Notes: generated by a model not told the origin, from the letters alone. 64,000 bases of DNA from Candidatus Uhrbacteria bacterium (GCA_016929435.1 JAFGIV010000013.1:15822-79821); one strand, 5' to 3'; numbered from the stretch's first letter, positions 26,164 to 59,876 are shown. Program-made: numbers and translations.

Positions 26164-26167
26164 TCCG

Positions 26168-44215: not shown

Positions 44216-44842
44216 ATGGACACGGATCCCCAAAAATACGCCGACATTCCCGGCGGGGAAGGGGGCGGGACCGAAAGGAAAGGGACTTTCGGGGCGGTTT
44301 TGGAGTTCGTCGGCGAGTTGGTCCACGTCATACTGATATCCCTGGCCATCATCGTCCCGATCCGGTATTTCCTGATCCAGCCGTTCTACGTCAAGGGGGC
44401 ATCGATGGAGCCGAGCTTCTATGACCACGAATACCTGATCATCGACGAGATCAGCTACCGGTTCGGCGACCCGAACCGGGGCGACATCGTCGTTTTTCGG
44501 TACCCGAACGACCCCAGGCAGTTTTTCATCAAGCGGGTAATTGGCCTGCCGGGGGAACGGGTGGTGATAGGCGGCGGTCAGGTGACCATCTACGGCAACG
44601 GCGATGCGGAAGGGAAGGTGCTGGACGAAGGCGCCTATCTGGGGACCGCCATAACCGTGGGGAACAGGGACGTCACCCTGGCCGAGGACGAATTTTTCCT
44701 GATGGGGGACAACCGTTCCGCCAGCCTTGATTCCCGGGTGTTCGGGGCCGTCTCCAGGGACTTCATCGTCGGTCGGGTATGGTTCAGGGGTTGGCCGCCG
44801 GAAAAGATCCGTTTCTTCGGTTCCGAAAACGCCCTGGAATAA
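44216..44842 (+). CDS. lepB: Signal peptidase I
   Basis: Catalytic Ser region (VKGASMEPSF), Lys box (FFIKRVIGLPGERV) and GDNRSASLDSR boxes. Confidence 0.88.
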   Translation: MDTDPQKYADIPGGEGGGTERKGTFGAVLEFVGELVHVILISLAIIVPIRYFLIQPFYVKGASMEPSFYDHEYLIIDEISYRFGDPNRGDIVVFRYPNDPRQFFIKRVIGLPGERVVIGGGQVTIYGNGDAEGKVLDEGAYLGTAITVGNRDVTLAEDEFFLMGDNRSASLDSRVFGAVSRDFIVGRVWFRGWPPEKIRFFGSENALE

Positions 44843-44873
44843 TTTTTTCGTCTATTTTTTTCCGAAAAGGCAT

Positions 44874-46334
44874 ATGGCAACCAAACCCAAGAAACCGATC
44901 GCCAAAGCCAAGGCGGCGACTCGAAAGGAAAAACCCCGGAAGGAACCGGTTCAAAGGCCGGTCCAGAAAAAGAAGCCGGCCGTGAAGGATCCGCCGGCCA
45001 GGAAGGTTGCGCCCAAGGAGGAGCCGGCGGAAGAAAACGCGGCAGCGGCGACCAAGGCCGTTCGGATTCCGCAGCTGCTCCGGGGCATGCGCGACATCCT
45101 TCCGTCCGAACAGCGGTATTGGCGCCATGTCGTCCGGAAGATGGAGGAGATAGCCCTGGCCTACGGGTACGAGAGGATCGACACCCCTGTCCTGGAGGAG
45201 ACTTCCCTGTTCGTCCGTTCCGTCGGCAAGCAGAGCGATGTCGTTGAGAAGGAGCTGTTCACCTTCACGGACCGGAGCGGGGACAGCGTTTCCCTCCGTC
45301 CGGAGGGTACCGCCTCCGTGGCCCGGGCCTACATAAACCATGGCATGGTCAACCTGCCGCAGCCGGTGAAGATGTTTTACGTCGGATCGATGTTCCGTTA
45401 CGAGCGTCCCCAAGCCGGCCGTTTCCGCGAGCATCACCAGTTCGGCCTGGAGGTCTTGGGTGAGGGCAGCCCGGTAATCGATGCCGAGCTGATCATGCTG
45501 TCCCACCTGCTCTACCGCGACATAGGCATCAAGACCGTGGCGCACGTGAACAGCATCGGCTGCTCCAACTGCCGCCAGGCATACCTGGAGCGCTTGACTG
45601 ACTTCTATCGGCCGAGACGCTCCCGTCTCTGCGAGGACTGCCGGCGTAGGCTGCTGAAGAATCCCCTGCGCCTGTTGGACTGCAAGGAGCCTTCATGCGT
45701 GGCCGCCCGCGAGGAGGTGCCGCATATCGTCGACTACCTCTGTGAGGAATGCAAGAACCACCTGACCAGGGTCCTGGAATACCTGGATGAGATGGGCGTT
45801 CCGTATGTCCTCAACCCGCACCTGGTCCGCGGCCTGGACTACTATACCCGGACGGTATTCGAGCTCATGCAGTCCGACGAGCAGTCCGCCGGACAGCACT
45901 CCCTGGCCGGGGGCGGCCGTTACGACAACCTCCTGGAACAGCTCGGCGGGAGTCCGACTCCGGCCTGCGGCTTCTCCATTGGCGTGGAACGGGCCATCCT
46001 GCAGATGAAGGCCCTGGACCTGCAGCCGGTTTCCGACCTGCAGCCCGACGTCTTCCTGGCCCAGTTGGGCGATACGGCCCGCCGGAAGGCCTTGATCCTG
46101 TTCGAGAGCCTTCGGAATTCCGGGATCCGGACCTCCGCCACCTTTTCCAAGAGCGCCCTGAAGGGCCAGTTGGAGGCCGCCAACCGGTTGGGGGCCAGGT
46201 ATACGGTCATTATCGGGCAGAAGGAAGTGATCGACGGGACGGTGCTTGTCCGGGACATGGAGTCCGGAATGCAGGAAGTGGTCGATTTCACCAAGGCCGT
46301 AGCGGAGATGAGGAAGAAACTGAGCCGCATGTAG
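44874..46334 (+). CDS. Histidyl-tRNA synthetase paralog (copy 2) with Lys-rich N-terminal extension and Cys-rich insertion
   Basis: Motif 2 FRYERPQAGRFREHHQFG, HisRS GGGRYDNL, anticodon-binding C-terminus. About 60-aa KPKK/AKAK-rich leader. Insertion with 8 Cys (CSNCRQ...CEDCRRRL...CKEPSC...CEECKNHL). The six-frame ORF begins at 44727, inside lepB; ATG at 44874 preferred. Confidence 0.8.
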   Translation: MATKPKKPIAKAKAATRKEKPRKEPVQRPVQKKKPAVKDPPARKVAPKEEPAEENAAAATKAVRIPQLLRGMRDILPSEQRYWRHVVRKMEEIALAYGYERIDTPVLEETSLFVRSVGKQSDVVEKELFTFTDRSGDSVSLRPEGTASVARAYINHGMVNLPQPVKMFYVGSMFRYERPQAGRFREHHQFGLEVLGEGSPVIDAELIMLSHLLYRDIGIKTVAHVNSIGCSNCRQAYLERLTDFYRPRRSRLCEDCRRRLLKNPLRLLDCKEPSCVAAREEVPHIVDYLCEECKNHLTRVLEYLDEMGVPYVLNPHLVRGLDYYTRTVFELMQSDEQSAGQHSLAGGGRYDNLLEQLGGSPTPACGFSIGVERAILQMKALDLQPVSDLQPDVFLAQLGDTARRKALILFESLRNSGIRTSATFSKSALKGQLEAANRLGARYTVIIGQKEVIDGTVLVRDMESGMQEVVDFTKAVAEMRKKLSRM

Positions 46335-46356
46335 GCGGATTTACGGGAATGGGTAC

Positions 46357-46390
46357 GGAAAACCCGTTCGGATTGCCGGGCGGGTTTTTT
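46357..46390 (+). terminator. Intrinsic terminator after hisS copy 2
   Basis: aaaacccg...cgggtttttt. Confidence 0.45.
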
Positions 46391-46441
46391 GTTGTCCCGA
46401 AGACAGGCCGTCAATAAGCCAAAAACGAGGTCGGGAGGCTG

Positions 46442-46470
46442 TTGACTGTGTCGGATTCGGTTGCTATAGT
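46442..46470 (+). promoter_or_regulatory. Sigma70-type promoter (TTGACT-17-TATAGT) for rpsU
   Basis: Sequence match; an AGGAGG Shine-Dalgarno at 46519-46524 precedes the GTG start. Confidence 0.5.
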
Positions 46471-46533
46471 GCTGTTAGGCAAGAGTCGAGTTTAGGGGAG
46501 GCCTAATTTAAGCCTGAAAGGAGGTCGAGGAAT

Positions 46534-46782
46534 GTGTCGGAAGTGAAACGCAAGAAAGGCGAAAGCTTCGAGAGTCTGTTGCGCCGGTTCAGCCGAAAGG
46601 TTCAGGAGAGCGGGCGGGTTTTTCAGGCTAGGAAGATTCGTTTCAAGAGCGAAAACAAGAGCAAGACGGCCACCCGCGAGGCGGCCCTTCGGCGGGAATA
46701 CCTTCGGTCCAAGCGGGAATACCTGATAAAGACCGGCCAGGCCACGGAAGAGGATTTCCAGAAAAAACGGCGTCACCGTTAG
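46534..46782 (+). CDS. rpsU: 30S ribosomal protein S21
   Basis: Small basic protein (ESFESLLRRFSRKVQESGRV..RKIRF..E..S) matching the S21 pattern; GTG start with a strong SD. Confidence 0.75.
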   Translation: MSEVKRKKGESFESLLRRFSRKVQESGRVFQARKIRFKSENKSKTATREAALRREYLRSKREYLIKTGQATEEDFQKKRRHR

Positions 46783-46834
46783 GTGGATCGCCGGTTAAGA
46801 GGTCGGTCATGCCCATGCCCGACCGGTTGCCAAC

Positions 46835-47293
46835 ATGACTGTCCAAGAGAGAATCGAAAGCGATTTCATCAGGGAGATGAAGGCCGGTAACAGGCCGGTG
46901 GTATCCGCGCTTCGGATGCTGAAGGCTGCCCTGAAGAACGCCCAGATAGAGAAGATGGCGCCATTGGATGACAGCGGGGCCATTGAGACCATATCCCGCG
47001 AGGCCAAGAAGATGCGGGATGCCCTTGAGACCTACCGGTCTGCCGGCCGCCAGGACATGGTCGACCGGGCCGAAGCGGAGATATCCGTTTTTCAGGCCTA
47101 TCTTCCCCAACCCCTCGGCAGGGAGGCCCTTGAGGGGATCGTCCGCTCCAAGATATCGGAATTGGGGGCCGTTGGGCCGAAGGACATGGGCCGGGTCATG
47201 GCAGCGGTCATGAAGGAGGCCCAGGGGCAGGCCGACGGTTCGGTTGTGAGCGAAATGGTAAGGTCTGCCCTCCTGGTCGGGTCAGGTGGCTGA
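46835..47293 (+). CDS. GatB/YqeY domain protein
   Basis: 152 aa; GatB_Yqey-like helical domain (ALRMLKAALKNAQIEK...AVMKEAQGQADGSVVSEMVRSAL). Confidence 0.7.
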   Translation: MTVQERIESDFIREMKAGNRPVVSALRMLKAALKNAQIEKMAPLDDSGAIETISREAKKMRDALETYRSAGRQDMVDRAEAEISVFQAYLPQPLGREALEGIVRSKISELGAVGPKDMGRVMAAVMKEAQGQADGSVVSEMVRSALLVGSGG

Positions 47294-47335: not shown

Positions 47336-49564
47336 ATGCTTGGAAGGAAACACCGGGAAAAAATCGCCGCCGTGACGGCCGACGGTCCGGGACACCGGAT
47401 CGGTTGGTTGTTGGCGGCGGTTTTGCTTTTGGCGTCAGCGGCGGCGTGGCCGGAAGCGGCCATGGCCCAGACGTCCGCCGCCGATCAGCTGGCGGCCGGA
47501 TTGGAGTCCACCCAGACAATCGGCCTGGGGACGGCCGATCTGGTGACCATGGTCGGGCGGATCATCAACGTTGCCCTGGGGATTTTGGGCGTCATAGTCG
47601 TTGTCCTGTTCGTGTACGCCGGTTACGTGTACATGATGGCCAAGGGCGATTCGGGGGAGGTCGACAAGGCCAAGCGGATCATGGTCAGTACGGTCATCGG
47701 GCTTGTCATTGTCCTGTCCGCCTACGCCATTACCCAGTTCATCCTTCGCACCATTTTGGGGAGCGTCGGACCGGGCGGCGGCCAGTCCGGTTCGGGGGGT
47801 TCGGTCTTGATGTCGAACTACTGCACGGACTGCGGCCCGGAACAGTTGGGCAACGGGATAATCTCCTACCACTACCCGACGGTCAACCAGACGGACGTGG
47901 AGCGGAACACCGGAATCGCCATTACCTTCAAGCTGCCGCTGTTGCCGTCGTCGGTACTGAAGAACTATTTCGATAACGGGACCTACGATACTGCGGATGA
48001 CGGCTGGTGCCCGACGGATTGCTCCGCGGAAGGGCACAACCCGATCGATCCGGCCAATCCCCCGACCTTTTACCTGAACGACGATAACGTCAAGGTCGTC
48101 CCGTTCGCTGACCTTCAGACGCCTTCCGGAAGCGCGGGTTCGGCGGAGGCCTTTGAGTCCCGGTACGACACCGATGCGGTCCTGTCCGGAGGGGAGGCAA
48201 CCGCCGTGCTGACGGCCGTTTCGCCGGTTTTTGACGTCAACGGATTGGGTCAGACCCTGGTGATCATGCCTACCGAATTTTTGGGAAGCAGCCAGGCTGA
48301 CGTGAACTACAGGGTGGCCCTGCGGGGCGGTTCGGACGAGGGGGCCATTCGGGTATTTGCCTGGGACCCGGATTCCGGCGCACCGGTATCGCGTCCGGCC
48401 TTCGACCGCCTCAATCCGGACGGGTCGTATTTCTGGAATTTCACCACCGGCACCCTCTTGGACCTGACCCCGCCGGAAATAACCGCCGTGGTACCCAAAA
48501 CCGCCAAGAACCTGCCGGTTGACGGCGACGATTCCGGACGGCTGTTCCGCAACCAGCTCCTGCAGGTCTATTTTTCCAAACCCATGAATCCGGCGACGGT
48601 TTCCGGGATCAACGGCAGCGGTTTCGGCTTCATTGAGACCTACTACAGGGACGGGGCGTCATGGAAGGTCCTGCCGGGAACGTGGGTCGTGGCGGCCGGG
48701 TATCGGGCCGTTGAGTACGTCCCTGACATGCCCTGCGACGGCATTACCGAAAACTCCTGTGGGGATAAGGTGTTTTGCCTGCCGTCGGATACCTTGATTG
48801 CCGTGGCCGTAAAGCCGGCCAGCGTCGGGGAACAGCCTCCCCGGGCCGCGGCCCTGAACGGCGTCGTTGACATGGTCGGCAACGTCCTGGACGGCAACGC
48901 CGACGGGGAGCTTTTGGGGCCGGGTCCGGTGGGAATCGGGTCATGGACCATGAACGGCTCCCTTATCCCCGGCACCTCGGTTTGGGCCAATTTTTCCAGG
49001 GATACCGTCATTTGGCTTTATGCGGTCGGAAACCGGATAGACCTTGAGCCGCCGAAGATAACGGCCGTAGACCCCACCAACCTTTCCAGCCGGCTCGGGC
49101 AGCCCTACCCGGACGGGTCGTCGCGGTTTCCGGTCGACCAGCCGATCACCTCCACCTGGACGAAGTCGATGAGCATCAAGTCCATGATCACCGGTCCTGA
49201 TTCCTACGGTCCGGCCACCATCGGCCTGCGGGCACAGGAGATAGCCAAGGACGGATCGGGGATCGGTTCGCCGGCCTTTACGGTCGAACCTGTCCTGGTT
49301 GACGGGGATACCCGCACCAGGATGGTCATGACCCACAGGATTTTCCTCACCGCCAACGATCTCGGATGGACGCCTCTCGACGCCAACCCCTCACTTCCAG
49401 TCTATATTCCGGTATTCAAGTCCCGCCTCCAGGATACCCGCCAAAACTGTTTCTACCCGAGTGAGGCGATCAACTGCTCGGGGATCGGGGAGATCAGCCC
49501 GTTTTGCTGCAGCGATTCGGTCAGCGCATCCGCCCTGCCGGCCTGTAACCCTAGCCTGCCGTAG
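47336..49564 (+). CDS. Secreted/membrane-anchored surface protein (742 aa): signal peptide, pilin-like double-TM N-terminal module, Ig-like (SbsA-type) repeats
   Basis: Signal peptide ending AMA|Q. Module ...MVGRIINVALGILGVIVVVLFVYAGYVYMMAKGDSGEVDKAKRIMVSTVIGLVIVLSAYAITQFIL is shared with the next gene. Gly-rich linker; repeated DLTPPEITAV/DLEPPKITAV Ig-like segments; C-terminal Cys cluster. Confidence 0.6.
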   Translation: MLGRKHREKIAAVTADGPGHRIGWLLAAVLLLASAAAWPEAAMAQTSAADQLAAGLESTQTIGLGTADLVTMVGRIINVALGILGVIVVVLFVYAGYVYMMAKGDSGEVDKAKRIMVSTVIGLVIVLSAYAITQFILRTILGSVGPGGGQSGSGGSVLMSNYCTDCGPEQLGNGIISYHYPTVNQTDVERNTGIAITFKLPLLPSSVLKNYFDNGTYDTADDGWCPTDCSAEGHNPIDPANPPTFYLNDDNVKVVPFADLQTPSGSAGSAEAFESRYDTDAVLSGGEATAVLTAVSPVFDVNGLGQTLVIMPTEFLGSSQADVNYRVALRGGSDEGAIRVFAWDPDSGAPVSRPAFDRLNPDGSYFWNFTTGTLLDLTPPEITAVVPKTAKNLPVDGDDSGRLFRNQLLQVYFSKPMNPATVSGINGSGFGFIETYYRDGASWKVLPGTWVVAAGYRAVEYVPDMPCDGITENSCGDKVFCLPSDTLIAVAVKPASVGEQPPRAAALNGVVDMVGNVLDGNADGELLGPGPVGIGSWTMNGSLIPGTSVWANFSRDTVIWLYAVGNRIDLEPPKITAVDPTNLSSRLGQPYPDGSSRFPVDQPITSTWTKSMSIKSMITGPDSYGPATIGLRAQEIAKDGSGIGSPAFTVEPVLVDGDTRTRMVMTHRIFLTANDLGWTPLDANPSLPVYIPVFKSRLQDTRQNCFYPSEAINCSGIGEISPFCCSDSVSASALPACNPSLP

Positions 49565-49567
49565 CGT

Positions 49568-52500
49568 ATGGTCAGACAAGCCCTTTCCGCAAGAAAAACG
49601 CTGGCCGCCATCCTGGCATTGGGTTTGGGGGCGGTTTTGGCCGTTCCCGCCCTGGCCCAAGTCGATGTCGGCCTGGAATCGGCGGCCGCCATTGGCCTTA
49701 CCACCACTGACATTCGAACGATCGTTTCCCAGGTAATCAACGTTTTCCTGGGTCTTTTGGGTATTGTGGCGGTTGCGCTGATAGTTTACGGCGGATACGT
49801 CTACATGATGGCCAAGGGGGACCAGAACGAGGTTCAGCGCGCCAAGAAGATATTGGTGAACGCCCTCATCGGGCTGATCATAATTTTGGCCTCATACGCC
49901 ATCGCCTCATTCGTGCTGCGGGCGATTTCCGGAGGCAGCGGCGGAGAGGTGGGGGAGGGGGATTGCCCTCCGGGGGCCACCTGCAGCTCCTCCTTCCCGT
50001 CCCCGGGCAACTCCCTCCTGCTGAACGGGGTCATTCCGAGCGGCAGCGGCCCGAACGGGATGGGTTGGACCAGGGATAGCCTGCCCAGGATCGTCTTTAA
50101 CCGCAAAATCGACGCAACCACCCTGGATGACAGCCGCATCAGGGTTACCCGCTGCAACAGCCGGATGGACGGGGAGACGATCGCCGATTTCAGGAACAGC
50201 GCCTGCAATACTGCGGTATCCGGGGAAGTCAGCCTGGTAAACGAGACCACTGCCGTGTTCCGACCGGTCGGACTGGAGAATGAGGGTCTTTTTGACGGTG
50301 ACTACTGGTATCGGCTGGAGCTTCGGGGGATCCCCCTGCCGATCAGGAGCCTGGACGGGAAGGACCTGGCATGCCTGACGGCCCTGCCGGGAGACGGGGA
50401 TTACGATTCCTACGTTCAGAACCTGCCGTCTAATTCCCGGGTCTGCATTAGGGCCATTGCCTACAACACCCTAATTGATACCGGACCGCCCACCGTAGCC
50501 ATCAGTTGGCCCAGGGACGGGCAGTCGATCTGTGCCGATACGACCGAGGCTTCGGCCGTGGCCAGGGACGATGTCCTGGTTTCGGGGATCCGGTTCTCTC
50601 TTTCCGATCCGGCCTCGCCGTCCGACCCGCTTTCCCTGGCCTTCCCGTCGAACCCCTTGGACATCCCCAATTCCGGGCAGGTGACCGGTCCGTTTACCGC
50701 CTCCGCCACGATTTTCGGCAGTCACCTCAACGTTGGACAGGAATACAGGTTTTCGGCCGTGGCTTCCGACCTCCGTTTCCCGAACCCCGAAGGGGAGACT
50801 GTTGGGGTTGATTTCAGCGTCAGGCCCCAGCACTGCTGCGACGGCCAGCTGAACGACGACGAGAGCGGGGTGGACTGTGGCCCTGATTCCGGCTGCGGGT
50901 CGTGCCCGGGGGACGGGTGCACGGAAAACGGCGACTGTTCGTCCGGTTTTTGCGAGGAAGGCGTCTGCGTTTCCCTGCCGCGAATAGTCTCCGTTGACCC
51001 GATTGATCCCAATACGCAAGTTTTTGGCGGCGGTCCGGGGACCCTGGTTACCCTGAACGGCGAGTACTTCGGCGGGGCGGTCGGGGTCGTGGAGTTCTAT
51101 GACGGTACGCATGCCCTGACCGCCGAACCGTGCCTTCCGGGAGCCTGGACCAACGGCCAGGTGACCGTTAGGGTTCCTGAGGGGGTGAAGGTGGGAGGGC
51201 GGTATTTCGTCCGACTGACCAGGTCCGACAGCCGACACACCAGCACGGAAGCCGGACAGGAGGATGCCTACGGCTGGCTGGGGTATTTTCAGGAGAACGG
51301 GAATAACACCCCGGGCATCTGCCTGATCAGGCCGGCCAGCGGCAGCGAGGGCGACGTTTTTGAGGTTGTCGGTGACGGTTTCGGTGACGGTTCGGTGGGT
51401 GACCTGACGGTTAGTTTCGGGATATCCAACCCTTTCACGGTGGTGCCGGATTCCCGGACAGCGTCTTCCCTGACGGCCAAGGTCCCGCGGGCCCCGGAGG
51501 GCACCTATCCGGTTCGGGTTTCCGGATCCGGATGGATGACCACAAACGACCCGAAGTTCGCCGTCCTTCTGCCCTCCGAAAGCATGCAGCCGAAGATCGA
51601 GGGGATTTCGCCGAACGCCGGCCCGGTCGGAAATTACGTTACGATCAGCGGTAAGGGGTTCGGCAGCCAGCGCGGGCGGGTGGTGTTCCTGTTCGGGGAC
51701 GGACTGAACGAGGAACGGGCCATTGGGGCGGATACGGTCTGCGAAGACAGCTGGAAGGACTCCTACGTTACGGTCAAGGTACCGAAACAGTACGAGTGCC
51801 AGGAAGGAAGCGCCTGTCCCCTGCAGTTGGGCACGCACCGGATCCGGGTGGAGACGGCCAAGGGGCTGAAGAGCAACACCGTTAACTTCACGGTCAACAC
51901 CGATCCCCTGACCCCGAACATCTGTTCCATCAAGCCGGATAACGGCCCGCCCGGCACGGTCGTGACGGTGGGCGGGGAAAACCTTGGATCCGGTCCGGCC
52001 GCCGCCGCTCCCCTGAACGCCGTCGGATACGAGTGCCAGGACCCGAACCAGACCGGATGCGACATCAACGGCGTCGCCATGTCCTCGGAGGTCTCCTCCT
52101 GGCAGGTGAAGGCCCTGAAGTCAATCGTTCCGGGCAACAGGCTTAGCGTTGCCACCTGGCCGGACAGCGGCGATGTCCATGTCTGGTCCTACAATGTCCG
52201 CAGCGGAAACGGCCTGCCGTTCCTGGTCCAGGACTGCAACGACGGCGGGGACCGGGCCTGCCCCGCGGGTTTCGTGTGCTGCCAATCCGGTATCTGCGAT
52301 GACGGTTCGTCCAGCCCGACCGGCCGTCCCTGCGACTTCAGCCGCACCAGCGAGTTCGCCTGGCGTTTGAGCACGGAGATGATGCCCGTACCCCCCCAGC
52401 TTCTGACCTGTCCGTCATGCGGGGCGGTCGCCTGTCCCCTGACCGACGGCCTGCAGAGCCCCTCCCCGTTTCCGGGGTCGCGGGATGCCTGCGTCAACGC

Positions 52501-55500
52501 CAACATTGAGGCGGTGATCAGCCAGCGGCTGGAGGTTCCGTCCGGTGTCTCCGCGGCGGTTTCCGTTCTGTCCTGCGGTTCCGGGGAATCGCCGGATTCC
52601 TGTGTCGATGTGACAGGTGAAATGTCCCTGACGGTTTCGGCGGTCGGGGCGGGAGGGGGAAGCGGCCTGGTCAGCATCCGGCCGTCCGGCGGGGATTTCC
52701 TCCTGCCGGATACCTGGTACAGGGTCACTCTCAAATCCGACGGGCTTAGGGAAAACCTGACCGGGAACCGTACGGCCTTTGACGGCGACAGGGACGGCCT
52801 GCCGGGCGGCGATTATGTTTGGGAGTTCCGGACCAAGGATTCCCCCTGTGCCCTTGCGTCGGTAAGCGTAACGCCGAGCGAATACAACATTGACCACTGG
52901 AAGGGACAGCCGTCCCCGGACGACAGCGGTTTCAGGGCCGGCCTTCAGGCCGCCAACTGCAACAGCATCACCTGTGATCCCCTGAGCTATTCCATCGGGT
53001 GGTCGGTATCCGATCCCATGACGATATCCAAGGTGACGACGGCCAAGGCCTGTCACCAGAAGGTAGAGGCCCTGAAGGAAACCCTAATCGGGGAATTGGT
53101 CGACCTTTCGGCCAATGTCCGGCCTGTAGGGGAAACCCTGAGCCGGACCGGGAAGGCGGGGATTACGGCCCGGTTCGCCGATCCGGAGGTAGCGGGATTT
53201 GAGCCTGATTGCGATGAGGCCTGCGTCAACGCCGCCATCGGCATGACGTTCAGCACGCCGATGGAACCGAATTCCGTAATCGCCGGCAATACCGTCCTTC
53301 TCAAGACCTGCCGAAACCAAAGCTGCAACGAGCCTTTCGAGACGGCCGGGGCGGTCGGTCTGGTCGGCATCGAAAGCTATGCTGGCACTGATTCCGACGG
53401 CTATGTCGGATTCAGCCTTGATACCGACTCTGACCTGGCGCCGAACACTTTCTACCTGGTGATGGTGAAGGGCGGAGGGAACGGCGTGATGAGCAAGAGC
53501 GGCAAGACCCTGGTCGGCACCAACCTTACCGATTCCTCCGGAACCCCCTGGTTTACCTGGCGTTTCCGGACCAAGGACAGCAACCTGCCCTGCCAGCCGA
53601 GTCGGGCGGAAATAGTACCAAGGAACGCCGAGTTCAGGTATGTCGGACAGAAACTGCCGCTTTTCGTCCGCACCTACGGTTCCCCCGATTCCTGCAGCGC
53701 CGAAGGGCAGGCCCTGAACGCCGGCGATTACGGCTGGAGTTGGGGAAAGACGGCCAATGGCGTAGTCAGCCGGTTCCTGACCTCTGGGTCGGCCACTGTC
53801 CTGGATACCAATCCGGCCGTCCCGATCGGGTGCTCCTCCAGTTGCCTTAAGGTCGGTTCCCAGACGGCCCGGCCCCAATGCGGCAACGGGAAGGTCGAAT
53901 TAGGGGAGGATTGTGACGGAGGCAGCGGCTGCTCCCCCACCTGCCTGAACACCGGTTCCCCGACCTGCGGCAACGGTGTCCTTGATCCTGGGGAGGATTG
54001 CGAGTCGGTCGGCGGGATATTCCCTCCCGGGTGCTCCGACTGCCTCAATGCCGGATCGGCCCAGGGGAACTCGACCTGCGGCGACGGGTACGTTGGGGAC
54101 GGCGAGGATTGCGACGGGACCAGCGGCTGTGACCCCGTGTCCTGCCTAAATTTGGGGACCTTGCCCAGGTGCGAGGCCGTTACCGCACCCAAACCGGGCG
54201 TTAACTGCATAAACTATTGCGGAAACGGGATTTTGGAATACGGGGAGGAGTGTGAGGCTGCAGGCGGCACCTTTCCCCCGGGTTGCGACAGGAAAACCTG
54301 CCTGTGGGCCGGGACACCCAAGTGTTCCGATCCTGAAGGCGCCAAATGCTGCGGCAACGGGATTACGGACAGCGGGGAGGATCCGGGTTGCGAGTTCGGG
54401 TTCGGCCAATCGGCCGAATGGTGCGACGACCGGTGCCTGAACCGCGGATCCTCATACCTTTACGATTCGCCCAGCTTCTGCGGAGACATGGTTTTGGGCA
54501 GCGGGGAGGAATTGGGGTGTGAGGTGGCCTCCACAGGCCAGCCCGGACCGGCCGATCCTTTCCAGGTGATACTCGGGGGCAAGCCCCTGGCCACGGCCAT
54601 TGACCCGGCCACCGGATCGGCGACCGACACGGTAACATCCCGGACCGGGGGGATTTCGGCATCCAACCAGGGTGAAGCCACCGTCAGCCTTACCTGCCGC
54701 TGCCGGGAGGAGGACGATCCGCACGGTTTCTGTGAGTCGGTGGGGGAAGGTTTGGGGTGCGACGACATCGGCTGCTGCTCGCCGGCTCCCGGCGTGGCCG
54801 GCTCTACGCCGGCGGACGGCTCCTCCAACATCTGCCGCAATGCCCTTGTCAGCGTTGTTTTCGATGCGGCCATCAGTCCAGACTCGGTCAACGGCAGCAG
54901 TTTCCGGGTCGTGCGGGACGCTGGTTTTGGCACGCCGGCCTGCCGGTTCTGCAGTAACGATCCGGACAGGGCCTGCCTGTCCGATGGGGATTGCGGTTCG
55001 GGCGGTACCTGCCAGGACGGGACGGTGGAGAACGGCGGGAAGATACTGGCCGCTGTCGGCACGGGGGAACCGTCCGAAGACGGCGGGTTATGGGATCGGT
55101 TCGTCCGGTTCGTCCGCCGGCTGTTTTTCCGGTCAGCGTCAGCCCAGACTGTACAGACCTTCTGTCGGGTTCCCGGCCAGGTCAGCCTGACCGGACAGGA
55201 CACCGTTACCTTTACCCCGTTCGGCGTAATGTCCGGAACGGTAGGCCACCACATCCTTTTGACCGGCGGCAGCGACGGAATTCGCTCGTCCATGGGCGTG
55301 CCCATGAAGGCGGACCGGAGGATATCGTTCGTCACCTCGGACAGCGTCTGCGAAATAGGATCGATCCGGATCGATCCGGAATCGGTCCTGATCCAGGGCA
55401 TTGAGGGGGAAAACTCCTCCTTTGTCCTGACGGCCCATGCCCAGGCGGCCGGCCAGCCGGTCGGGACGGAAATCGTTTCCACGCCGGCCTATCGGTTCGA

Positions 55501-58500
55501 CTGGAACTGGAACCTGCCGGTCGTCACCTCTCCGGTGGCGCTGACGGTATCCGACTTTTTTCCTGACGGCCAGGGCCACAGTCCGGTATCCGAAGTCAGG
55601 GCCAGGACAGGAGCGGGATTCCCGAAGGAGGGGAGGGAAACCGTAACGGTCCGGACCGACATATACGGTTCGGGGACATCGGTCACCAAAACCATGACTG
55701 CCTCTTCCGATGCGACGGTCATGCTCTGTGAGCACCCGTGGCCGGATTGGCATGTCTGCAGTTCGGCCAATGACGTCTATTATCCCTATCCGGGGCACGC
55801 CGTCGACTGTTCCAGGGCCGGCCAGCAGATGTGGTATCCGTTCATAGACGGAAGCACCCTAACCTCCTTCTATTACTGTCGTGACGGTGCCACGGCCGGC
55901 GATTCCGGACAGTTGCTGCCGGCATTGAGCGGCGTTAAGATCGGCAGTAACCGGGCCGACATCCTCCACGAATACCTGTTCACCTTTCCGGGTTCGGCGG
56001 GGGAAAACTGGGTTAGGGACGCCATCGGACTGCGGGTTTCCAAGAACATGGAGCATTTCGGCATTTCCGACTGGTATTCCCGGCAGGGTTTCGTCGGTTC
56101 CCCGCAGCCGGTAACGATGGACGGCTATGAGGGCCTGAAGGAGGGACGGAGCGTTTACGTAAATGCCGCCGCCAAGACCGCCGTTTCCCCGAACCTGTAC
56201 ACCAATGTGTATACCCTGTCCCACAGTGACGGGGCTTCCCCGGAGACGGTCGGCATTTTCAGCCAGATCCTCGGAAACATGGACATGAACTGGCGGGTCC
56301 TGACCGACAGCCGCTATTGCGTGATTGACGACAGGCAGGTCCTGGTTGACGGGCAACCGGTATATTGCGAGAAGGACCGGGACTGTCGGGTTACGGCCGG
56401 TGACGACGGCCGGGAATCGTTCCCATCCGAAAGGTCCGTTTGGACCTGTCAGGCCGACAGGAGCAAGGTCCGACGCGATGTCCTGCGCTGGTCAGACATC
56501 CATACCATCCGTCTGGCCCTGAACCGGGCCCGGTCGGTAGGCGGATACCCGTCCCTGGATTCCGGGACCTACCTGCGCGGCTGGACCACCAGTGCCTGGC
56601 CGTCCTGGAACGAGGTCTTGGCGAACCAGATCGGTTTGGGGTCGCTTCCGGCCGATCCGGCGGAGGGTTTCATGGACTGCGGAACCGGCGGTTCGGGGCA
56701 CGATTCAGTGACCTGCTGGGATCCGGCTGTCAGGACCTACCGGTGTCCGTCCGGATCGCAGACATATACGTATAGGGGTTTGGGCGGGCTGAACTATGTC
56801 CTGGAGGCGATGTTCGAGTATGCGGACGGAAACTGGGCCAGCGGCACTGCCTGTTTGGGCAAGGGCGAGCCTGCCTGCCGGGCAAACGACCGTTGCGAAT
56901 GGCTTTCCTCCGACGGCTCCCCTTCGGAATGCCAATACCGGGGCGGCGGTCGGATAAGGGTCAGGGGTATCGGTAACGTTGAAACCACGTGCTCATCCGG
57001 GGTTACCGTTGGCATCGGCTCGGTTTGCGGTGACGGCCTGGTCGGGGAAGGGGAGGAATGCGAGCCGGGAGTGTCGTCCCCGCGCCAGATTCCCTGCGCG
57101 GCGGATTCGCGGAGCGGTTTCCGCCATCAGGCCTGCAATGACCAGTGCCGGTGGCAGGACTCCAGCGGCTGCATTACCGGTTCCTGCGGCGACGGCATTG
57201 TCCAGACGGAAGCGGGCGAGGCCTGCGATGACGGGCCCCTGAACGGGCAATACGGCCGATGCGGCAATGACTGCACCTATTCTGCCTCCCGATGCGGCGA
57301 CGGCGTCCGTCAGGCCAACGAGGCCTGCGATTGTGCACCCGGCGGGTTGCCGAACGGCACCTATGCCCTGAACGGCGTCCTGGCATCGTCCGGACAGCGG
57401 TGCGGAAACTCCGGACACGCCGTTCCGGGGTGTGCCTGGGACTGTTCCGGTCCCGGACCGCGCTGCGGTGACCTGGTGGTGAACGGCAGCGAGCAGTGCG
57501 ACGGCGGGACGGAGGAATATCCCAGGCTGTGCATCGGAAAGAACAACGGCAACCCGAAACGGCCGGTCATGACCGGCAACACCTACAGTCCGGTTCCCGG
57601 AAACGCCTACACCGGGTGTCGGACAGATGCCGATTGCCCGAGTGACCAGGTTTGCGCCGCCCTATGCGATCCTGACAGGCCGGAGCGGGTCTGGCGCAGG
57701 AACTGCCAGAGCAACGACCCGTTCGATTGGTTCGATAACGATGACGGCAGGGCCTGCACCTGGACCGTTTGGCAGTGCGGCTCGGCAGGTTTCTGCGGCA
57801 ACGGGGTCTTGGAAACGGGGGAGGAATGCGATGACGGCAATGACGACAATATGGACTCCTGCATCATCGACCCGAACGGCACCGGAACCTTCGGGACGCC
57901 GGTGATGTGCCGGAAAGCCGCCTGCGGCGACGGCTACGTCAGCCCGTCCAACAACGAGGAGTGCGATGCCGGCAGCCAAAACGGCCAGTCCTGCATTGCG
58001 GAATACGGCAAGACCTGCTCGTTCTGTTCGACGGGATGCAAGTTGGCCTACGTTTCCGGCGGGTTCTGCGGGGACAGCGTCATCCAGAACCGTTCCTTTG
58101 TCCCTCCGGGGCCGGAGGAATGCGAAGGGAGCCTGGAGCTGGAGAACTGGGTCTGCGTCAGCGACCGCCCGGAACACCAGATGTTCGGAAAGATGACCGG
58201 TTTGGCCATATGTGACCACGAAAGGGGGTGTGTCCGGGGGTGTTCCGATTCCGGGTCGGTCCCGTGCCTGGAGACCGGGAACCCGCTTGCCGGATCGGAT
58301 TACGACGGGGAGGCCGGATGGGACAAGCCGAACGATGCCCTTTTGGCGGCCATCGGTTACGGTTATGACCTGGGACAGACGGTTTTGGCTGACGGGCCGT
58401 GCGATCCGGACTGGGATAACGACGGCGTGCCCAACGGTTCGGACTGCCGCCCGACGGTCAGTGAGGTGCATCCCGCATACCAGGTGGTGGCCTCGGACGG

Positions 58501-59320
58501 CAAGGTCTTGAGGGTTCCGGCTGCCTTTGACGACTGCGACGGCTGCGATAACGACTGCGACGGCGTAGTGGACAACGGCGATCCCGACATATTCAAGAAG
58601 GTGGACATCCTGTTCGTGGTGGACGGTTCCGCATCAATGGACACCAGCATTCGGGGGCTGACCATGTTCACGGCGGATTTGGCCAGGCAGATGATACCTC
58701 CGGATAGGCCGGATGGGGTTCCGGCTGAAGTGGGAACAAAAGTCAAGCTGGGCCTCATCCAGTACTCGTGGAAAAGCAAGGATGATGAGGGTTCGGGCTA
58801 CAGGCGCGAATTAGACCTCTCCACCCCCAAGGTCTATTCCGAATGGGCGGATGGTTTCGCTGACAAGTGTGAGGGGGACTGCACCACCCAAGGCGGAATA
58901 GAAGCCGGAACCGCCATGCTGTGGAAGATACTCCAGGACCGGTTCGTCGATGAAAGCACCATGCCGGACATCACTTGGGACCAAGACGCCGTCCCCTACA
59001 TCATCATCATGACCGATGACAACCCCTACCAGCTGGTGGATGTCATCGAGAAATCGGCCCCCTCGGATATACGCGACATGTTGGGTGACGATCCGAGGGC
59101 CCAGATATTCGCCCTGCAGATGAGAACGAGAAGATGTTCCCCAGGTTCCTGTTCAGAGCATTGGGATATCGTTTTCGCCAACTACCCGGAAAACGAGACT
59201 CACCTCAAGGTTGCGGATCCGGGTAAGGATTTCGAGTATTACAGGGGAGAGTTCGGCCAGTTCTTCTACGACTATATCCTGAGACACATCTGCTACGCCT
59301 ATGTCTGCAGATTCGACTGA
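49568..59320 (+). CDS. Giant cell-surface protein (3250 aa): pilin-like N-terminal anchor module, IPT/TIG repeats, numerous Cys-rich CxxCGDG...EECDDG repeats, C-terminal VWA domain
   Basis: Uninterrupted 9.75 kb ORF. N-terminus paralogous to the 47336 gene. IPT/TIG-like segments (PRIVSVDPIDP...GGGPGTLVTLNGEYFG; PKIEGISPNAGPVGNYVTISGKGFG; PNICSIKPDNGPPGTVVTVGGENLG). More than 15 repeats of the CGNG/CGDGxxxxGEECD type. VWA with MIDAS DxSxS (DILFVVDGSASMDTS). Confidence 0.7.
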   Translation: MVRQALSARKTLAAILALGLGAVLAVPALAQVDVGLESAAAIGLTTTDIRTIVSQVINVFLGLLGIVAVALIVYGGYVYMMAKGDQNEVQRAKKILVNALIGLIIILASYAIASFVLRAISGGSGGEVGEGDCPPGATCSSSFPSPGNSLLLNGVIPSGSGPNGMGWTRDSLPRIVFNRKIDATTLDDSRIRVTRCNSRMDGETIADFRNSACNTAVSGEVSLVNETTAVFRPVGLENEGLFDGDYWYRLELRGIPLPIRSLDGKDLACLTALPGDGDYDSYVQNLPSNSRVCIRAIAYNTLIDTGPPTVAISWPRDGQSICADTTEASAVARDDVLVSGIRFSLSDPASPSDPLSLAFPSNPLDIPNSGQVTGPFTASATIFGSHLNVGQEYRFSAVASDLRFPNPEGETVGVDFSVRPQHCCDGQLNDDESGVDCGPDSGCGSCPGDGCTENGDCSSGFCEEGVCVSLPRIVSVDPIDPNTQVFGGGPGTLVTLNGEYFGGAVGVVEFYDGTHALTAEPCLPGAWTNGQVTVRVPEGVKVGGRYFVRLTRSDSRHTSTEAGQEDAYGWLGYFQENGNNTPGICLIRPASGSEGDVFEVVGDGFGDGSVGDLTVSFGISNPFTVVPDSRTASSLTAKVPRAPEGTYPVRVSGSGWMTTNDPKFAVLLPSESMQPKIEGISPNAGPVGNYVTISGKGFGSQRGRVVFLFGDGLNEERAIGADTVCEDSWKDSYVTVKVPKQYECQEGSACPLQLGTHRIRVETAKGLKSNTVNFTVNTDPLTPNICSIKPDNGPPGTVVTVGGENLGSGPAAAAPLNAVGYECQDPNQTGCDINGVAMSSEVSSWQVKALKSIVPGNRLSVATWPDSGDVHVWSYNVRSGNGLPFLVQDCNDGGDRACPAGFVCCQSGICDDGSSSPTGRPCDFSRTSEFAWRLSTEMMPVPPQLLTCPSCGAVACPLTDGLQSPSPFPGSRDACVNANIEAVISQRLEVPSGVSAAVSVLSCGSGESPDSCVDVTGEMSLTVSAVGAGGGSGLVSIRPSGGDFLLPDTWYRVTLKSDGLRENLTGNRTAFDGDRDGLPGGDYVWEFRTKDSPCALASVSVTPSEYNIDHWKGQPSPDDSGFRAGLQAANCNSITCDPLSYSIGWSVSDPMTISKVTTAKACHQKVEALKETLIGELVDLSANVRPVGETLSRTGKAGITARFADPEVAGFEPDCDEACVNAAIGMTFSTPMEPNSVIAGNTVLLKTCRNQSCNEPFETAGAVGLVGIESYAGTDSDGYVGFSLDTDSDLAPNTFYLVMVKGGGNGVMSKSGKTLVGTNLTDSSGTPWFTWRFRTKDSNLPCQPSRAEIVPRNAEFRYVGQKLPLFVRTYGSPDSCSAEGQALNAGDYGWSWGKTANGVVSRFLTSGSATVLDTNPAVPIGCSSSCLKVGSQTARPQCGNGKVELGEDCDGGSGCSPTCLNTGSPTCGNGVLDPGEDCESVGGIFPPGCSDCLNAGSAQGNSTCGDGYVGDGEDCDGTSGCDPVSCLNLGTLPRCEAVTAPKPGVNCINYCGNGILEYGEECEAAGGTFPPGCDRKTCLWAGTPKCSDPEGAKCCGNGITDSGEDPGCEFGFGQSAEWCDDRCLNRGSSYLYDSPSFCGDMVLGSGEELGCEVASTGQPGPADPFQVILGGKPLATAIDPATGSATDTVTSRTGGISASNQGEATVSLTCRCREEDDPHGFCESVGEGLGCDDIGCCSPAPGVAGSTPADGSSNICRNALVSVVFDAAISPDSVNGSSFRVVRDAGFGTPACRFCSNDPDRACLSDGDCGSGGTCQDGTVENGGKILAAVGTGEPSEDGGLWDRFVRFVRRLFFRSASAQTVQTFCRVPGQVSLTGQDTVTFTPFGVMSGTVGHHILLTGGSDGIRSSMGVPMKADRRISFVTSDSVCEIGSIRIDPESVLIQGIEGENSSFVLTAHAQAAGQPVGTEIVSTPAYRFDWNWNLPVVTSPVALTVSDFFPDGQGHSPVSEVRARTGAGFPKEGRETVTVRTDIYGSGTSVTKTMTASSDATVMLCEHPWPDWHVCSSANDVYYPYPGHAVDCSRAGQQMWYPFIDGSTLTSFYYCRDGATAGDSGQLLPALSGVKIGSNRADILHEYLFTFPGSAGENWVRDAIGLRVSKNMEHFGISDWYSRQGFVGSPQPVTMDGYEGLKEGRSVYVNAAAKTAVSPNLYTNVYTLSHSDGASPETVGIFSQILGNMDMNWRVLTDSRYCVIDDRQVLVDGQPVYCEKDRDCRVTAGDDGRESFPSERSVWTCQADRSKVRRDVLRWSDIHTIRLALNRARSVGGYPSLDSGTYLRGWTTSAWPSWNEVLANQIGLGSLPADPAEGFMDCGTGGSGHDSVTCWDPAVRTYRCPSGSQTYTYRGLGGLNYVLEAMFEYADGNWASGTACLGKGEPACRANDRCEWLSSDGSPSECQYRGGGRIRVRGIGNVETTCSSGVTVGIGSVCGDGLVGEGEECEPGVSSPRQIPCAADSRSGFRHQACNDQCRWQDSSGCITGSCGDGIVQTEAGEACDDGPLNGQYGRCGNDCTYSASRCGDGVRQANEACDCAPGGLPNGTYALNGVLASSGQRCGNSGHAVPGCAWDCSGPGPRCGDLVVNGSEQCDGGTEEYPRLCIGKNNGNPKRPVMTGNTYSPVPGNAYTGCRTDADCPSDQVCAALCDPDRPERVWRRNCQSNDPFDWFDNDDGRACTWTVWQCGSAGFCGNGVLETGEECDDGNDDNMDSCIIDPNGTGTFGTPVMCRKAACGDGYVSPSNNEECDAGSQNGQSCIAEYGKTCSFCSTGCKLAYVSGGFCGDSVIQNRSFVPPGPEECEGSLELENWVCVSDRPEHQMFGKMTGLAICDHERGCVRGCSDSGSVPCLETGNPLAGSDYDGEAGWDKPNDALLAAIGYGYDLGQTVLADGPCDPDWDNDGVPNGSDCRPTVSEVHPAYQVVASDGKVLRVPAAFDDCDGCDNDCDGVVDNGDPDIFKKVDILFVVDGSASMDTSIRGLTMFTADLARQMIPPDRPDGVPAEVGTKVKLGLIQYSWKSKDDEGSGYRRELDLSTPKVYSEWADGFADKCEGDCTTQGGIEAGTAMLWKILQDRFVDESTMPDITWDQDAVPYIIIMTDDNPYQLVDVIEKSAPSDIRDMLGDDPRAQIFALQMRTRRCSPGSCSEHWDIVFANYPENETHLKVADPGKDFEYYRGEFGQFFYDYILRHICYAYVCRFD

Positions 59321-59338: not shown

Positions 59339-59842
59339 ATGAGAAAGTTCGCCATTGCCATTGTCCTGCTGTCCGTCCTGCTGACGGCCGGAATAGTGCT
59401 GGTCGTAAGGGAACGGAACAGACATTCGGTTTCCGGAGTCCCAGACGTCCCGCTGGCCGGAAACGTGGGATCCGAATCCGGCCTGACTGCGGATAATTCG
59501 GGCCCGACCCAGCCGTTCTGCGGGGACTATGTCTGCGACACCGGGGAGACGATTGCCGGCTGCCCCATTGACTGTCCGCCGACGGTCATGTCCGGGGTGG
59601 AAATACGGAACCAAACCGCCGACGTTTCGTGGAAAAGCCTGATACCGGTGACCATTTCCGTCCGGTACGGCTCCGGTACCCTGGACCGCACCGCCAACCT
59701 GGATCGGGCATCAACGGAACACGAGTTAAGGCTGGAGGGAATCGAGCCGGATACGATATACGACCTGTGCGTTGTTTCGGTTGGGGAGGACGGAACCCGG
59801 TATCCGGAATCGTGCGATGAGTTCCGGTCTCCGGCGGAATAG
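59339..59842 (+). CDS. Small membrane-anchored protein with Cys-rich motif and FN3-like domain
   Basis: N-terminal signal anchor; CGDYVCDTGETIAGCPIDC motif, the same pattern as the repeats in the 60536 gene; beta-rich C-terminal domain. Confidence 0.5.
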   Translation: MRKFAIAIVLLSVLLTAGIVLVVRERNRHSVSGVPDVPLAGNVGSESGLTADNSGPTQPFCGDYVCDTGETIAGCPIDCPPTVMSGVEIRNQTADVSWKSLIPVTISVRYGSGTLDRTANLDRASTEHELRLEGIEPDTIYDLCVVSVGEDGTRYPESCDEFRSPAE

Positions 59843-59876
59843 GGCGGCTTTTGTGGTATAGTAACGGTATAGGCTT

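What the first reader, a model, noticed from the sequence alone, without database searches (positions are those of the whole stretch)
47471..49990. Two adjacent genes share a paralogous N-terminal module with VirB2/TrbC-pilin-like topology (signal peptide, TM1, YMMAKGD loop, TM2)
After Sec signal peptides (AMA|Q and ALA|Q), residues about 45-140 of the 742-aa protein align with the 3250-aa protein. Compare ...LVTMVGRIINVALGILGVIVVVLFVYAGYVYMMAKGDSGEVDKAKRIMVSTVIGLVIVLSAYAITQFILRTI with ...IRTIVSQVINVFLGLLGIVAVALIVYGGYVYMMAKGDQNEVQRAKKILVNALIGLIIILASYAIASFVLRAI. The arrangement is two hydrophobic helices split by a short charged loop, directly after a cleaved signal peptide. That is the topology of T4SS pilins (VirB2/TrbC). 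Here it is fused to huge extracellular regions, so the module may act as a membrane anchor or as an oligomerisation/fibre-base unit. A pilin-like domain carrying a 3000-aa passenger would be unusual.
Basis: inference. Interest (0 to 1): 0.75.

Follow-up and report, generated by a model that had tools for sequence, protein, structure and literature searches.

The report
Pilin-like hairpin fused to giant adhesins
Two neighbouring genes of an ultrasmall Candidatus Uhrbacteria bacterium each start with a conjugation-pilin-like membrane hairpin joined to a large surface-protein body, and this gene pair is conserved across a whole class of these bacteria, so it is probably a core cell-surface attachment device that I could not find described in the searchable literature.

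Summary
ORFs 47336-49564 (742 aa) and 49568-59320 (3250 aa) share an N-terminal module that is 51% identical over 115 aa (E=6e-30). The module is a Sec-type signal peptide followed by two hydrophobic helices split by a short charged loop.

The module passes Pfam's threshold for PF18895 T4SS_pilin, the VirB2-like pilin family of Patescibacteria. It hits TrbC/VirB2 (PF04956) only below threshold.

The 80 nearest relatives of the module are small stand-alone pilins of 107-219 aa. The fusion is nevertheless not a one-off:
- At least 558 species genomes encode the ~650-aa fusion. They are Uhrbacteria, Magasanikbacteria, Falkowbacteria and Komeilibacteria, all of class ABY1.
- In 78 of 80 loci that gene is directly followed by a large module-bearing ORF, usually 2200 to more than 3500 aa.
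- The pair sits in a fixed housekeeping block (S26 peptidase, HisRS, S21, YqeY) and not next to T4SS genes.

The passengers are Ig-like, TIG, Cys-rich and possibly VWA domains, with no other membrane anchor. The two hairpins co-evolve within each genome.

Best reading: a pair of surface adhesins tethered and probably co-assembled through a pilin-derived hairpin. Whether they stay in the membrane or enter a T4SS pilus is unresolved. This is a new variant of a known kind.

The parts
47336..49564 (+). Gene for the 742-aa 'medium' modular pilin-like protein
   Evidence: ORF and translation. 49 homologue clusters of 583-1006 aa, all but one with a precomputed PF18895 hit. AF2 pLDDT 80.9, pTM 0.76.
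47336..47470 (+). Sec-type signal peptide, aa 1-45, putative cleavage AMA|Q
   Evidence: Hydrophobic segment 25-44. The AxA|Q position is conserved in alignment A1. Read by eye, not run through a predictor.
47540..47755 (+). PF18895 T4SS_pilin hairpin, aa 69-140 (TM1, loop KGDSGEVDKAKR, TM2)
   Evidence: Pfam 38.8 bits against 26.6. AF2 helices 69-101 and 106-140. Hydropathy.
47756..47842 (+). Gly/Ser-rich flexible linker, aa 141-169
   Evidence: pLDDT below 50 at 142-156. The equivalent linker in homologues is also Gly-rich.
47843..49561 (+). Extracellular beta-rich body with Big_5/SbsA-type Ig-like domains and conserved Cys
49568..59320 (+). Gene for the 3250-aa 'giant' modular pilin-like protein
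   Evidence: ORF and translation. Syntenic giants of 2200 to more than 3500 aa that also start with the module occur in 78 of 80 loci.
49568..49657 (+). Sec-type signal peptide, aa 1-30, putative cleavage ALA|Q
   Evidence: Hydrophobic segment 8-36. Alignment A2.
49703..49936 (+). PF18895 T4SS_pilin hairpin, aa 46-123 (TM1, loop KGDQNEVQRAKK, TM2)
   Evidence: Pfam 41.0 bits, and 46.8 bits for the isolated module, against 26.6. AF2 helices 49-81 and 86-123.
49937..49972 (+). Gly-rich linker, aa 124-135
   Evidence: Sequence SGGSGGEVGEGD. Low pLDDT at the end of the module model.
50990..52267 (+). IPT/TIG Ig-like domain region, about aa 475-900
   Evidence: PF01833 at 57.5 bits with 4 stretches. 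Positions taken from the piecewise scan.
53189..54913 (+). Region containing Big_5 Ig-like domains (aa 1208-1335 and 1740-1782)
   Evidence: PF13205 at 51.9 bits for the whole protein. Pieces score 34.7 and 26.6 bits.
57128..57862 (+). Cys-rich DUF4215-type repeats (CGDG...EECD motifs), aa 2521-2765
   Evidence: PF13948 at 32.6 bits. The protein has 158 Cys, concentrated in this part.
58604..58825 (+). Possible VWA-like start with a DxSxS motif (DILFVVDGSASM), aa 3013-3086; below threshold
   Evidence: PF00092 at 17.8 bits against 23.8. No PDB sequence hit. The C-termini of giants are not conserved across lineages.
59339..61741 (+). Three downstream genes for single-pass membrane proteins with Cys-rich, Fn3-like and TSP3 ectodomains (167, 220 and 401 aa)
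   Evidence: Translations and hydropathy. TSP3_bac at 71.3 bits. Homologues of the 220-aa and 401-aa proteins lie downstream of the giant in 15 and 9 other loci.
44216..47293 (+). Conserved upstream block: S26 signal peptidase, HisRS, S21, YqeY (context, not shown to be functionally linked)
   Evidence: Pfam. Of 63 loci with at least 4 kb upstream, S21 is present in 62, HisRS in 61, S26 in 60 and YqeY in 51.

Best explanation
The two genes form a conserved operon that encodes a pair of cell-surface, adhesin-like proteins. Each protein is built by grafting an extracellular body onto a VirB2-type (PF18895) pilin hairpin.

Proposed mechanism:
- Sec exports each protein and its signal peptide is cleaved.
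- The two hydrophobic helices insert as a hairpin, with the N-terminus outside, the short basic loop in the cytoplasm and the C-terminus outside.
- A Gly-rich linker then leads to an extracellular stalk. In the 742-aa protein this is a set of Big_5-type Ig-like domains.
- In the 3250-aa protein it is TIG and Big_5 domains, Cys-rich repeats and possibly a terminal VWA-like head.
- The hairpin is the only membrane-associating element, so it is the tether.
- The hairpins of the two proteins co-evolve within each genome and are as well conserved as real pilins. I infer that they pack against each other, and perhaps against small pilins, as an oligomerisation unit.
- The complex presents the giant adhesin to host cells or particles.

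Shown: the sequence relationship, family membership, architecture, conservation, synteny and co-evolution. Inferred: the topology, the oligomerisation and the adhesive role.

It is not resolved whether the hairpins stay in the membrane, which I take as the default, or are extracted into a pilus.
For: - Module identity and Pfam membership.
- There are only three hydrophobic segments, all N-terminal, and no sortase, SLH or other anchor.
- AF2 models a hairpin, a disordered linker and a confident beta-rich body, and fold matches are only to Ig-like surface or S-layer type domains.
- The giant carries TIG, Big_5, DUF4215 and weak VWA hits and 158 Cys.
- The pair is conserved in 78 of 80 species loci within a housekeeping block.
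- No T4SS gene lies in the window.
- Across 79 genomes, the giant's module from the same genome has median rank 3 of 79 in similarity to the medium's module. With GC-matched peers it ranks first in 42% of genomes, against 7% expected.
- Tandem multi-module polypeptides with up to 17 modules exist, which shows the modules tolerate side-by-side packing.
- In solved F-type pili both pilin termini face outward, so a C-terminal passenger is topologically allowed (PMC5018250).
Against: - No experiment or predictor confirms the topology or the signal-peptide cleavage.
- An adhesive function is inferred only from domain types, and the ectodomain has no match to a characterised adhesin.
- If the hairpin were merely an anchor, its pilin-level conservation would be unexpected. 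That favours the pilus-incorporation rival.
- The co-evolution signal could partly reflect gene conversion and not physical interaction. No recent conversion tract is seen in the window.
Confidence: 0.5

Rival explanations
1. The two proteins are modular minor pilins of the patescibacterial T4SS pilus. In this reading the VirB4 machinery extracts the hairpins from the membrane and incorporates them into a VirB2-type fibre made of small pilins encoded elsewhere. Incorporation would be at the tip or sparsely along the shaft, so that the passengers are displayed at a distance from the cell. They would be functional analogues of VirB5 or PrgB adhesins, and of the modular type IV pilin PilB.
For: - The fusion hairpins score like genuine small pilins and keep the same invariant glycines.
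- Pilin termini face the outside of solved F-type pili (PMC5018250).
- Four of 80 loci carry an extra small pilin gene inside or next to the pair.
- All 6 genomes with the pair that are listed in Table S1 of PMC12102498 are VirB4-positive.
- That study detected no PrgB-type adhesin in Patescibacteria, which leaves the role vacant.
- Grafting modules onto pilins is a known strategy in type IV pili (PMC8179133).
Against: - The pair is never seen next to T4SS genes in about 85 loci. It lies in a fixed housekeeping block.
- No patescibacterial T4SS pilus has been shown experimentally in the papers read here.
- The closest small pilins also sit in arrays with no VirB4-type hit recorded within 10 kb.
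- Six of six VirB4-positive genomes is weak evidence, because most genomes seen in the part of that table read here are VirB4-positive.
- A passenger of about 3100 aa per subunit cannot be accommodated except at very low stoichiometry.
Confidence: 0.3
2. The pair forms structural envelope or S-layer-like proteins. They would build or hold the surface layer of these monoderm cells and would not bind hosts. The hairpin would simply replace an SLH or lipid anchor.
For: - The pair has a core-genome location and near-universal presence in ABY1.
- The neighbours are other single-pass surface proteins, and ftsA lies downstream.
Against: - The distal parts of the giants are not conserved between lineages. 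That fits a variable binding surface better than a lattice-forming protein.
- The Ig-like fold matches are generic.
- No lattice or self-assembly domain was identified.
Confidence: 0.12
3. The hairpin is a transient export or assembly leader that is cleaved in the Gly-rich linker, releasing the passenger to the wall or the medium. This would be loosely analogous to the C-terminal processing of TrbC by an S26-type peptidase.
For: A flexible Gly-rich linker follows TM2 in every member. An S26 peptidase gene is conserved four genes upstream, in 60 of 63 loci. TrbC processing is cited from general knowledge and was not checked here.
Against: The S26 gene is most simply the housekeeping signal peptidase. 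No conserved cleavage motif is visible in the linker, which varies in length and sequence. Nothing else would retain the passenger at the cell.
Confidence: 0.08

Closest known systems
Patescibacterial VirB2-like pilins (Pfam PF18895 T4SS_pilin; Quinonero-Coronel et al. 2025, PMC12102498; Wang et al. 2023, PMC10633639)
   Same: Same family by profile score, with the same layout of signal peptide, TM1, short charged loop and TM2, and the same conserved glycines. Tandem paralogues within one genome are typical of this family.
   Different: The described pilins are small and are discussed as T4SS-associated arrays. The 80 nearest relatives here are 107-219 aa. The two window proteins carry passengers of about 600 and about 3100 aa and sit in a housekeeping block. 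The papers found do not mention such fusions.
TrbC/VirB2/TraA conjugative pilins of diderm T4SS (PF04956; F-pilus structure, PMC5018250)
   Same: Helical hairpin topology. PF04956 hits the same residues below threshold. In the pilus both termini point outward, so a C-terminal graft is geometrically allowed.
   Different: The PF04956 threshold is not met. There is no sequence hit to solved pilins. The fold search cannot discriminate between hairpins. There is no evidence for cyclisation or lipid binding. The host is a monoderm.
Modular type IV pilins PilB and PilC of Streptococcus sanguinis (PMC8179133)
   Same: Same design principle: a small pilin module with a bulky functional module (vWA in PilB) grafted on through a short linker and displayed for adhesion.
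   Different: It is an unrelated pilin class. Type IV pilins have a class III signal peptide and a single N-terminal helix, and are assembled by T4P machinery. The window proteins have a Sec signal peptide and a two-helix VirB2-type hairpin.
T4SS surface adhesins VirB5 (pilus tip) and PrgB (Gram-positive conjugation)
   Same: A possible functional analogy: an adhesive element associated with a T4SS or pilus. PrgB-type adhesins were not detected in Patescibacteria.
   Different: No sequence or fold similarity was found. The association with a T4SS is unproven.
Mycoplasma ICE Mbov_0395 pilin-like conjugal transfer protein (NCBIfam NF045849)
   Same: It matches the hairpin of both proteins at 32.0 and 37.6 bits (E 7e-8 and 1e-9). 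This links the module to monoderm conjugation systems.
   Different: Both scores are below the model's 40-bit cut-off. The mycoplasma model spans only 80 positions, so it describes a small protein.
S-layer proteins SbsA and SbsC and other Big_5/Ig-like surface proteins
   Different: No SLH or other wall-binding domain is present. The anchor is a pilin hairpin.

Membership tests
PF18895 T4SS_pilin (patescibacterial / monoderm VirB2-like pilin) | Profile HMM score above Pfam's gathering cut-off | tested here: met
   38.8 and 41.0 bits in the whole proteins and 41.8 and 46.8 bits for the isolated modules, against 26.6. The precomputed PF18895 hit is also on record for both proteins.
PF18895 T4SS_pilin (patescibacterial / monoderm VirB2-like pilin) | Signal peptide followed by two hydrophobic helices joined by a short charged loop | tested here: met
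   Hydropathy, AF2 hairpins and alignment with small pilins. The signal peptide was judged by eye only.
PF18895 T4SS_pilin (patescibacterial / monoderm VirB2-like pilin) | Small stand-alone protein of about 100-200 aa | tested here: not met
   742 and 3250 aa, whereas the 80 nearest module homologues are 107-219 aa.
PF18895 T4SS_pilin (patescibacterial / monoderm VirB2-like pilin) | Encoded in or near a T4SS (virB4) cluster. This is typical but not universal: 1135 of 1948 assemblies in PMC12102498. | tested here: not met
   No T4SS family appears in any ORF scanned across the 64 kb. The synteny in about 85 loci is housekeeping.
PF18895 T4SS_pilin (patescibacterial / monoderm VirB2-like pilin) | Polymerises into a T4SS-dependent pilus | not testable with these tools
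   This needs microscopy or biochemistry.
PF04956 TrbC/VirB2 pilin | Profile HMM score above the gathering cut-off | tested here: not met
   The best score is 22.3 bits (E=1.6e-4) against 27.9.
PF04956 TrbC/VirB2 pilin | Fold superimposable on solved VirB2/TraA pilins | tested here: inconclusive
Modular type IV (T4P) pilins, PilB type | Class III signal peptide and a single hydrophobic alpha-1N helix processed by a prepilin peptidase | tested here: not met
   The N-termini are Sec-type with AxA|Q and are followed by two helices. Pfam reported no type IV pilin family for either protein.
Modular type IV (T4P) pilins, PilB type | Pilin module with a bulky functional module grafted on through a short linker | tested here: met
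   The architecture is seen in both proteins. This is an analogy of design only.
S-layer proteins (SbsA/SbsC type) | Cell-wall anchoring domain (for example SLH) plus self-assembling Ig-like domains | tested here: not met
   Big_5 domains are present, but Pfam found no SLH or other wall-binding domain. Self-assembly cannot be tested here.

The most novel reading that the evidence does not exclude
These would be the first modular VirB2-type pilins. The T4SS of ABY1 Patescibacteria would build a pilus whose tip, or sparse decoration, is a medium-plus-giant adhesin pair attached through their own pilin hairpins. That would fill the missing VirB5/PrgB adhesin role in a monoderm T4SS and give the physical link between these epibionts and their hosts.
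Probability: 0.3. Interest if true: 0.8.

Novelty: new variant of a known kind. Interest (0 to 1): 0.6.

Why it matters
PF18895 'pilins' are among the most abundant protein domains specific to Patescibacteria. In the one genetically tractable member the pilin array of the T4SS cluster is essential, yet what these pilins do is unknown.

- The same hairpin is used as the foot of a conserved pair of large surface proteins throughout class ABY1. In a genome of about 1 Mb (relatives with this pair are 0.9-1.2 Mb), the giant gene alone takes roughly 1% of the DNA. That gives a concrete candidate for the host-contact apparatus.
- Counts of 'VirB2 homologues' made with this profile include proteins that are not simple pilins.
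- The finding frames a testable choice between a hairpin acting as membrane tether and a hairpin acting as pilus subunit.
- It also extends the 'modular pilin' idea from type IV pili to T4SS-type pilins.

Tried and rejected
- **Solved pilins:** a profile of the module searched against all PDB sequences found no pilin hit.
- **VWA head:** the C-terminus of the giant stayed below threshold in Pfam, had no PDB hit and is not conserved among giants. I list it only as possible.
- **Recent gene conversion:** the DNA alignment of the two modules shows many synonymous differences and only a short identical run of about 20 nt, so this is rejected for the window.
- **GC bias as the cause of co-evolution:** the signal persists among GC-matched genomes.
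- **P0001:** this 150-aa top hit looked like a stand-alone pilin, but it is a fragment of the orthologous giant in an assembly whose genes are split.
- **Cluster-member look-up:** it gave almost no organism names and was abandoned as a way to link genomes to VirB4 status.
- **Literature:** searches for fusions of this module found nothing.

Full report
**Observation**

The window carries two co-directional ORFs 3 nt apart: 47336-49564 (742 aa) and 49568-59320 (3250 aa). BLASTP between them gives one significant alignment, 59/115 identities (51%), E=6e-30. It covers residues 26-140 of the first protein and 12-120 of the second, and nothing else is shared. A six-frame phmmer scan finds only these two copies in the 64 kb.

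Each protein has exactly three hydrophobic segments, all at the N-terminus. These are a signal-peptide-like h-region ending AMA|Q or ALA|Q, and two longer helices separated by KGDSGEVDKAKR or KGDQNEVQRAKK. AlphaFold2 models the two helices as a hairpin: 69-101/106-140 in the 742-aa protein and 49-81/86-123 in the 3250-aa protein. The cleavage sites were judged by eye and by alignment only.

**What the module is**

Pfam places it in PF18895 T4SS_pilin, above the curated cut-off: 38.8 and 41.0 bits, and up to 46.8 bits for the isolated module, against 26.6. TrbC/VirB2 (PF04956) matches the same residues but below its cut-off (at most 22.3 against 27.9 bits). NCBIfam's mycoplasma ICE 'pilin-like conjugal transfer protein' (NF045849) hits at 32.0 and 37.6 bits against a cut-off of 40.

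PF18895 is the profile used, with others, to call 'VirB2-like pilins' in Patescibacteria, where arrays of 2-11 divergent pilin genes are common (PMC12102498). In Ca. Southlakia the pilin series inside the T4SS cluster is essential (PMC10633639).

A profile of the module finds 89,211 cluster representatives at E<=1e-3. An HMM trained only on small stand-alone pilins scores all 49 tested fusion N-termini at 99-137 bits, against 92-160 bits for the pilins themselves. The fusion hairpins are therefore not degenerate.

**Organism and context**

The 742-aa protein is identical to NCBI JW899_02885 of a Candidatus Uhrbacteria bacterium. The window is housekeeping throughout: L15, SecY, Adk, Map, two class II aminoacyl-tRNA synthetases (PF00152), ParA, RelA/SpoT, TopA, DprA, LytR, EF-G, TyrRS, S26 signal peptidase, HisRS, S21 and YqeY before the pair, then YbeY, DAGK and FtsA after it. 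No T4SS family was detected.

Directly downstream of the giant lie three single-pass membrane proteins with Cys-rich, Fn3-like and TSP3 ectodomains.

**The fusion is a conserved family**

The 80 closest relatives of the module are all small proteins of 107-219 aa. One of them, P0001, is a fragment of an orthologous giant in a fragmented assembly.

Searching with the body of the 742-aa protein alone gives 49 clusters of 583-1006 aa. All but one also carry PF18895, and most carry Big_5.

Their titles are Uhrbacteria, Magasanikbacteria, Falkowbacteria, Komeilibacteria and generic Patescibacteria or Parcubacteria. The members listed in PMC12102498 are all assigned to class ABY1.

In 78 of 80 loci with downstream DNA, the medium gene (480-998 aa, median 650) is immediately followed by a large ORF that again begins with the module. 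There are 34 complete ones of 576-3451 aa (median 3155). A further 44 run off the fetched DNA at up to 3518 aa or more.

Of 63 loci with at least 4 kb upstream, S21 is present in 62, HisRS in 61, the S26 peptidase in 60 and YqeY in 51. The same arrangement was seen in individual look-ups at 57%, 41%, 30% and 25% identity. This is a vertically inherited core-genome operon and not a mobile or T4SS-linked cassette.

**The passengers**

The family alignment shows many invariant residues and conserved cysteines.

The giant contains four TIG stretches, Big_5 domains, DUF4215-type Cys-rich repeats, a TSP3-like motif and a sub-threshold VWA start with a DxSxS motif. It has 158 cysteines. The distal ends of giants from different lineages do not align.

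**Co-evolution of the two hairpins**

Across 79 genomes the within-genome medium-giant identity (median 45%) exceeds three other medians: medium-medium between genomes (38.5%), giant-giant between genomes (41.9%), and medium-giant between different genomes (38.7%).

The giant module from the same genome has median rank 3 of 79 in similarity to the medium module, and ranks first in 22 cases. Among GC-matched genomes it ranks first in 42%, against 7% expected. Nearest neighbours are still mostly the same type from another genome.

So there are two orthologous lineages that keep tracking each other. The window shows no recent conversion tract.

**Mechanism**

Whether or not the signal peptide is cleaved, the segment order puts the C-terminal body outside the cell. 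The hairpin is the only possible membrane tether.

My best-supported reading (confidence about 0.5) is a pair of surface adhesin-like proteins tethered, and probably co-assembled, through a pilin-derived hairpin.

The main rival (about 0.3) is that they are modular minor pilins that a T4SS incorporates into a VirB2-type fibre. It has the following support:
- The hairpins are conserved at pilin level.
- In solved F-type pili both pilin termini point outward (PMC5018250).
- Occasional small pilin genes sit inside the pair.
- All six genomes that could be checked in PMC12102498 Table S1 are VirB4-positive.
- No PrgB-like adhesin was found in Patescibacteria.

Against this rival:
- The pair always sits in a housekeeping location.
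- No patescibacterial T4SS pilus has been demonstrated in the papers read here.
- Even the closest small pilins lie in arrays with no VirB4-type hit recorded within 10 kb.

An S-layer or structural role and a cleaved-leader model are less likely rivals.

**Comparison and novelty**

The module is a member of a known family. The architecture fails that family's 'small stand-alone pilin' and 'T4SS-adjacent' expectations. The nearest design analogue is the modular type IV pilin PilB, a vWA module grafted on a pilin (PMC8179133), but that is an unrelated pilin class.

I found no paper describing PF18895 fusions or this operon. The proteins are in databases as 'hypothetical protein' or 'pilin'. I rate it a new variant of a known kind, with interest 0.6.

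Noticed in passing
P0143 (1775 aa) and other top hits, for example P0130-P0141: These are 'poly-pilins': single polypeptides made of 2-17 tandem PF18895 hairpin modules with almost no other sequence. They imply large all-helical membrane proteins built from concatenated pilins.
   Followed up: partly
window 2033-2869 (+): A presenilin-type signal-peptide peptidase (PF06550 SPP, 71.6 bits) is encoded between secY (654-1931) and adk (2879-3535), inside the conserved ribosomal-protein/secY/adk/map gene order.
   Followed up: no
L088 7834-10396 and L089 4305-8512: The closest stand-alone pilins lie in arrays of 5-7 PF18895 genes directly downstream of an NTP_transferase gene and an SBP_bac_1 solute-binding-protein gene. 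No VirB4-type hit is recorded within 10 kb. The same neighbourhood appears in two unrelated contigs.
   Followed up: no
window 38000-42000: GC falls to 0.48-0.51 here against about 0.60 elsewhere. The genes include a DUF5700 putative zinc peptidase (39076-40059) and a DUF218 protein (40294-40905). This may be a horizontally acquired patch.
   Followed up: no
window 8391-9824 (+) and 32534-33145 (-): Mobile-element remnants are present: a DUF559 endonuclease with an IS1595-family transposase, and an IS200-like Y1 transposase. A weak Y1_Tnp gene also sits in the syntenic region of L002 (5386-5919).
   Followed up: no
window 11858-18307 (-) and 25727-27259 (+): Long ORFs of 380, 589, 622 and 510 aa have no Pfam match. 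In 60% GC DNA some may be spurious. Two tRNA-Met genes (15366-15645) lie in the gap between them.
   Followed up: no
L022 11746-12132, L031 8753-9247, L047 7071-7439, L058 3-371: In 4 of 80 loci an extra small pilin gene (123-165 aa) sits between or just upstream of the medium and giant genes. This hints that the pair can work with an ordinary pilin.
   Followed up: partly
L038 and L059 (medium gene about 537 aa at 9935-11575): These are the only two loci where the ORF after the medium gene has no detectable module. The reason was not examined; it could be a divergent giant, a loss or an assembly problem.
   Followed up: no
window 44216-44842 (+) and 60 of 63 related loci: An S26 signal peptidase gene is kept four genes upstream of the pilin-fusion pair across very divergent genomes. 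It is most likely the housekeeping LepB. It is worth noting because, from general knowledge, some VirB2-family pilins are matured by S26-type peptidases.
   Followed up: partly
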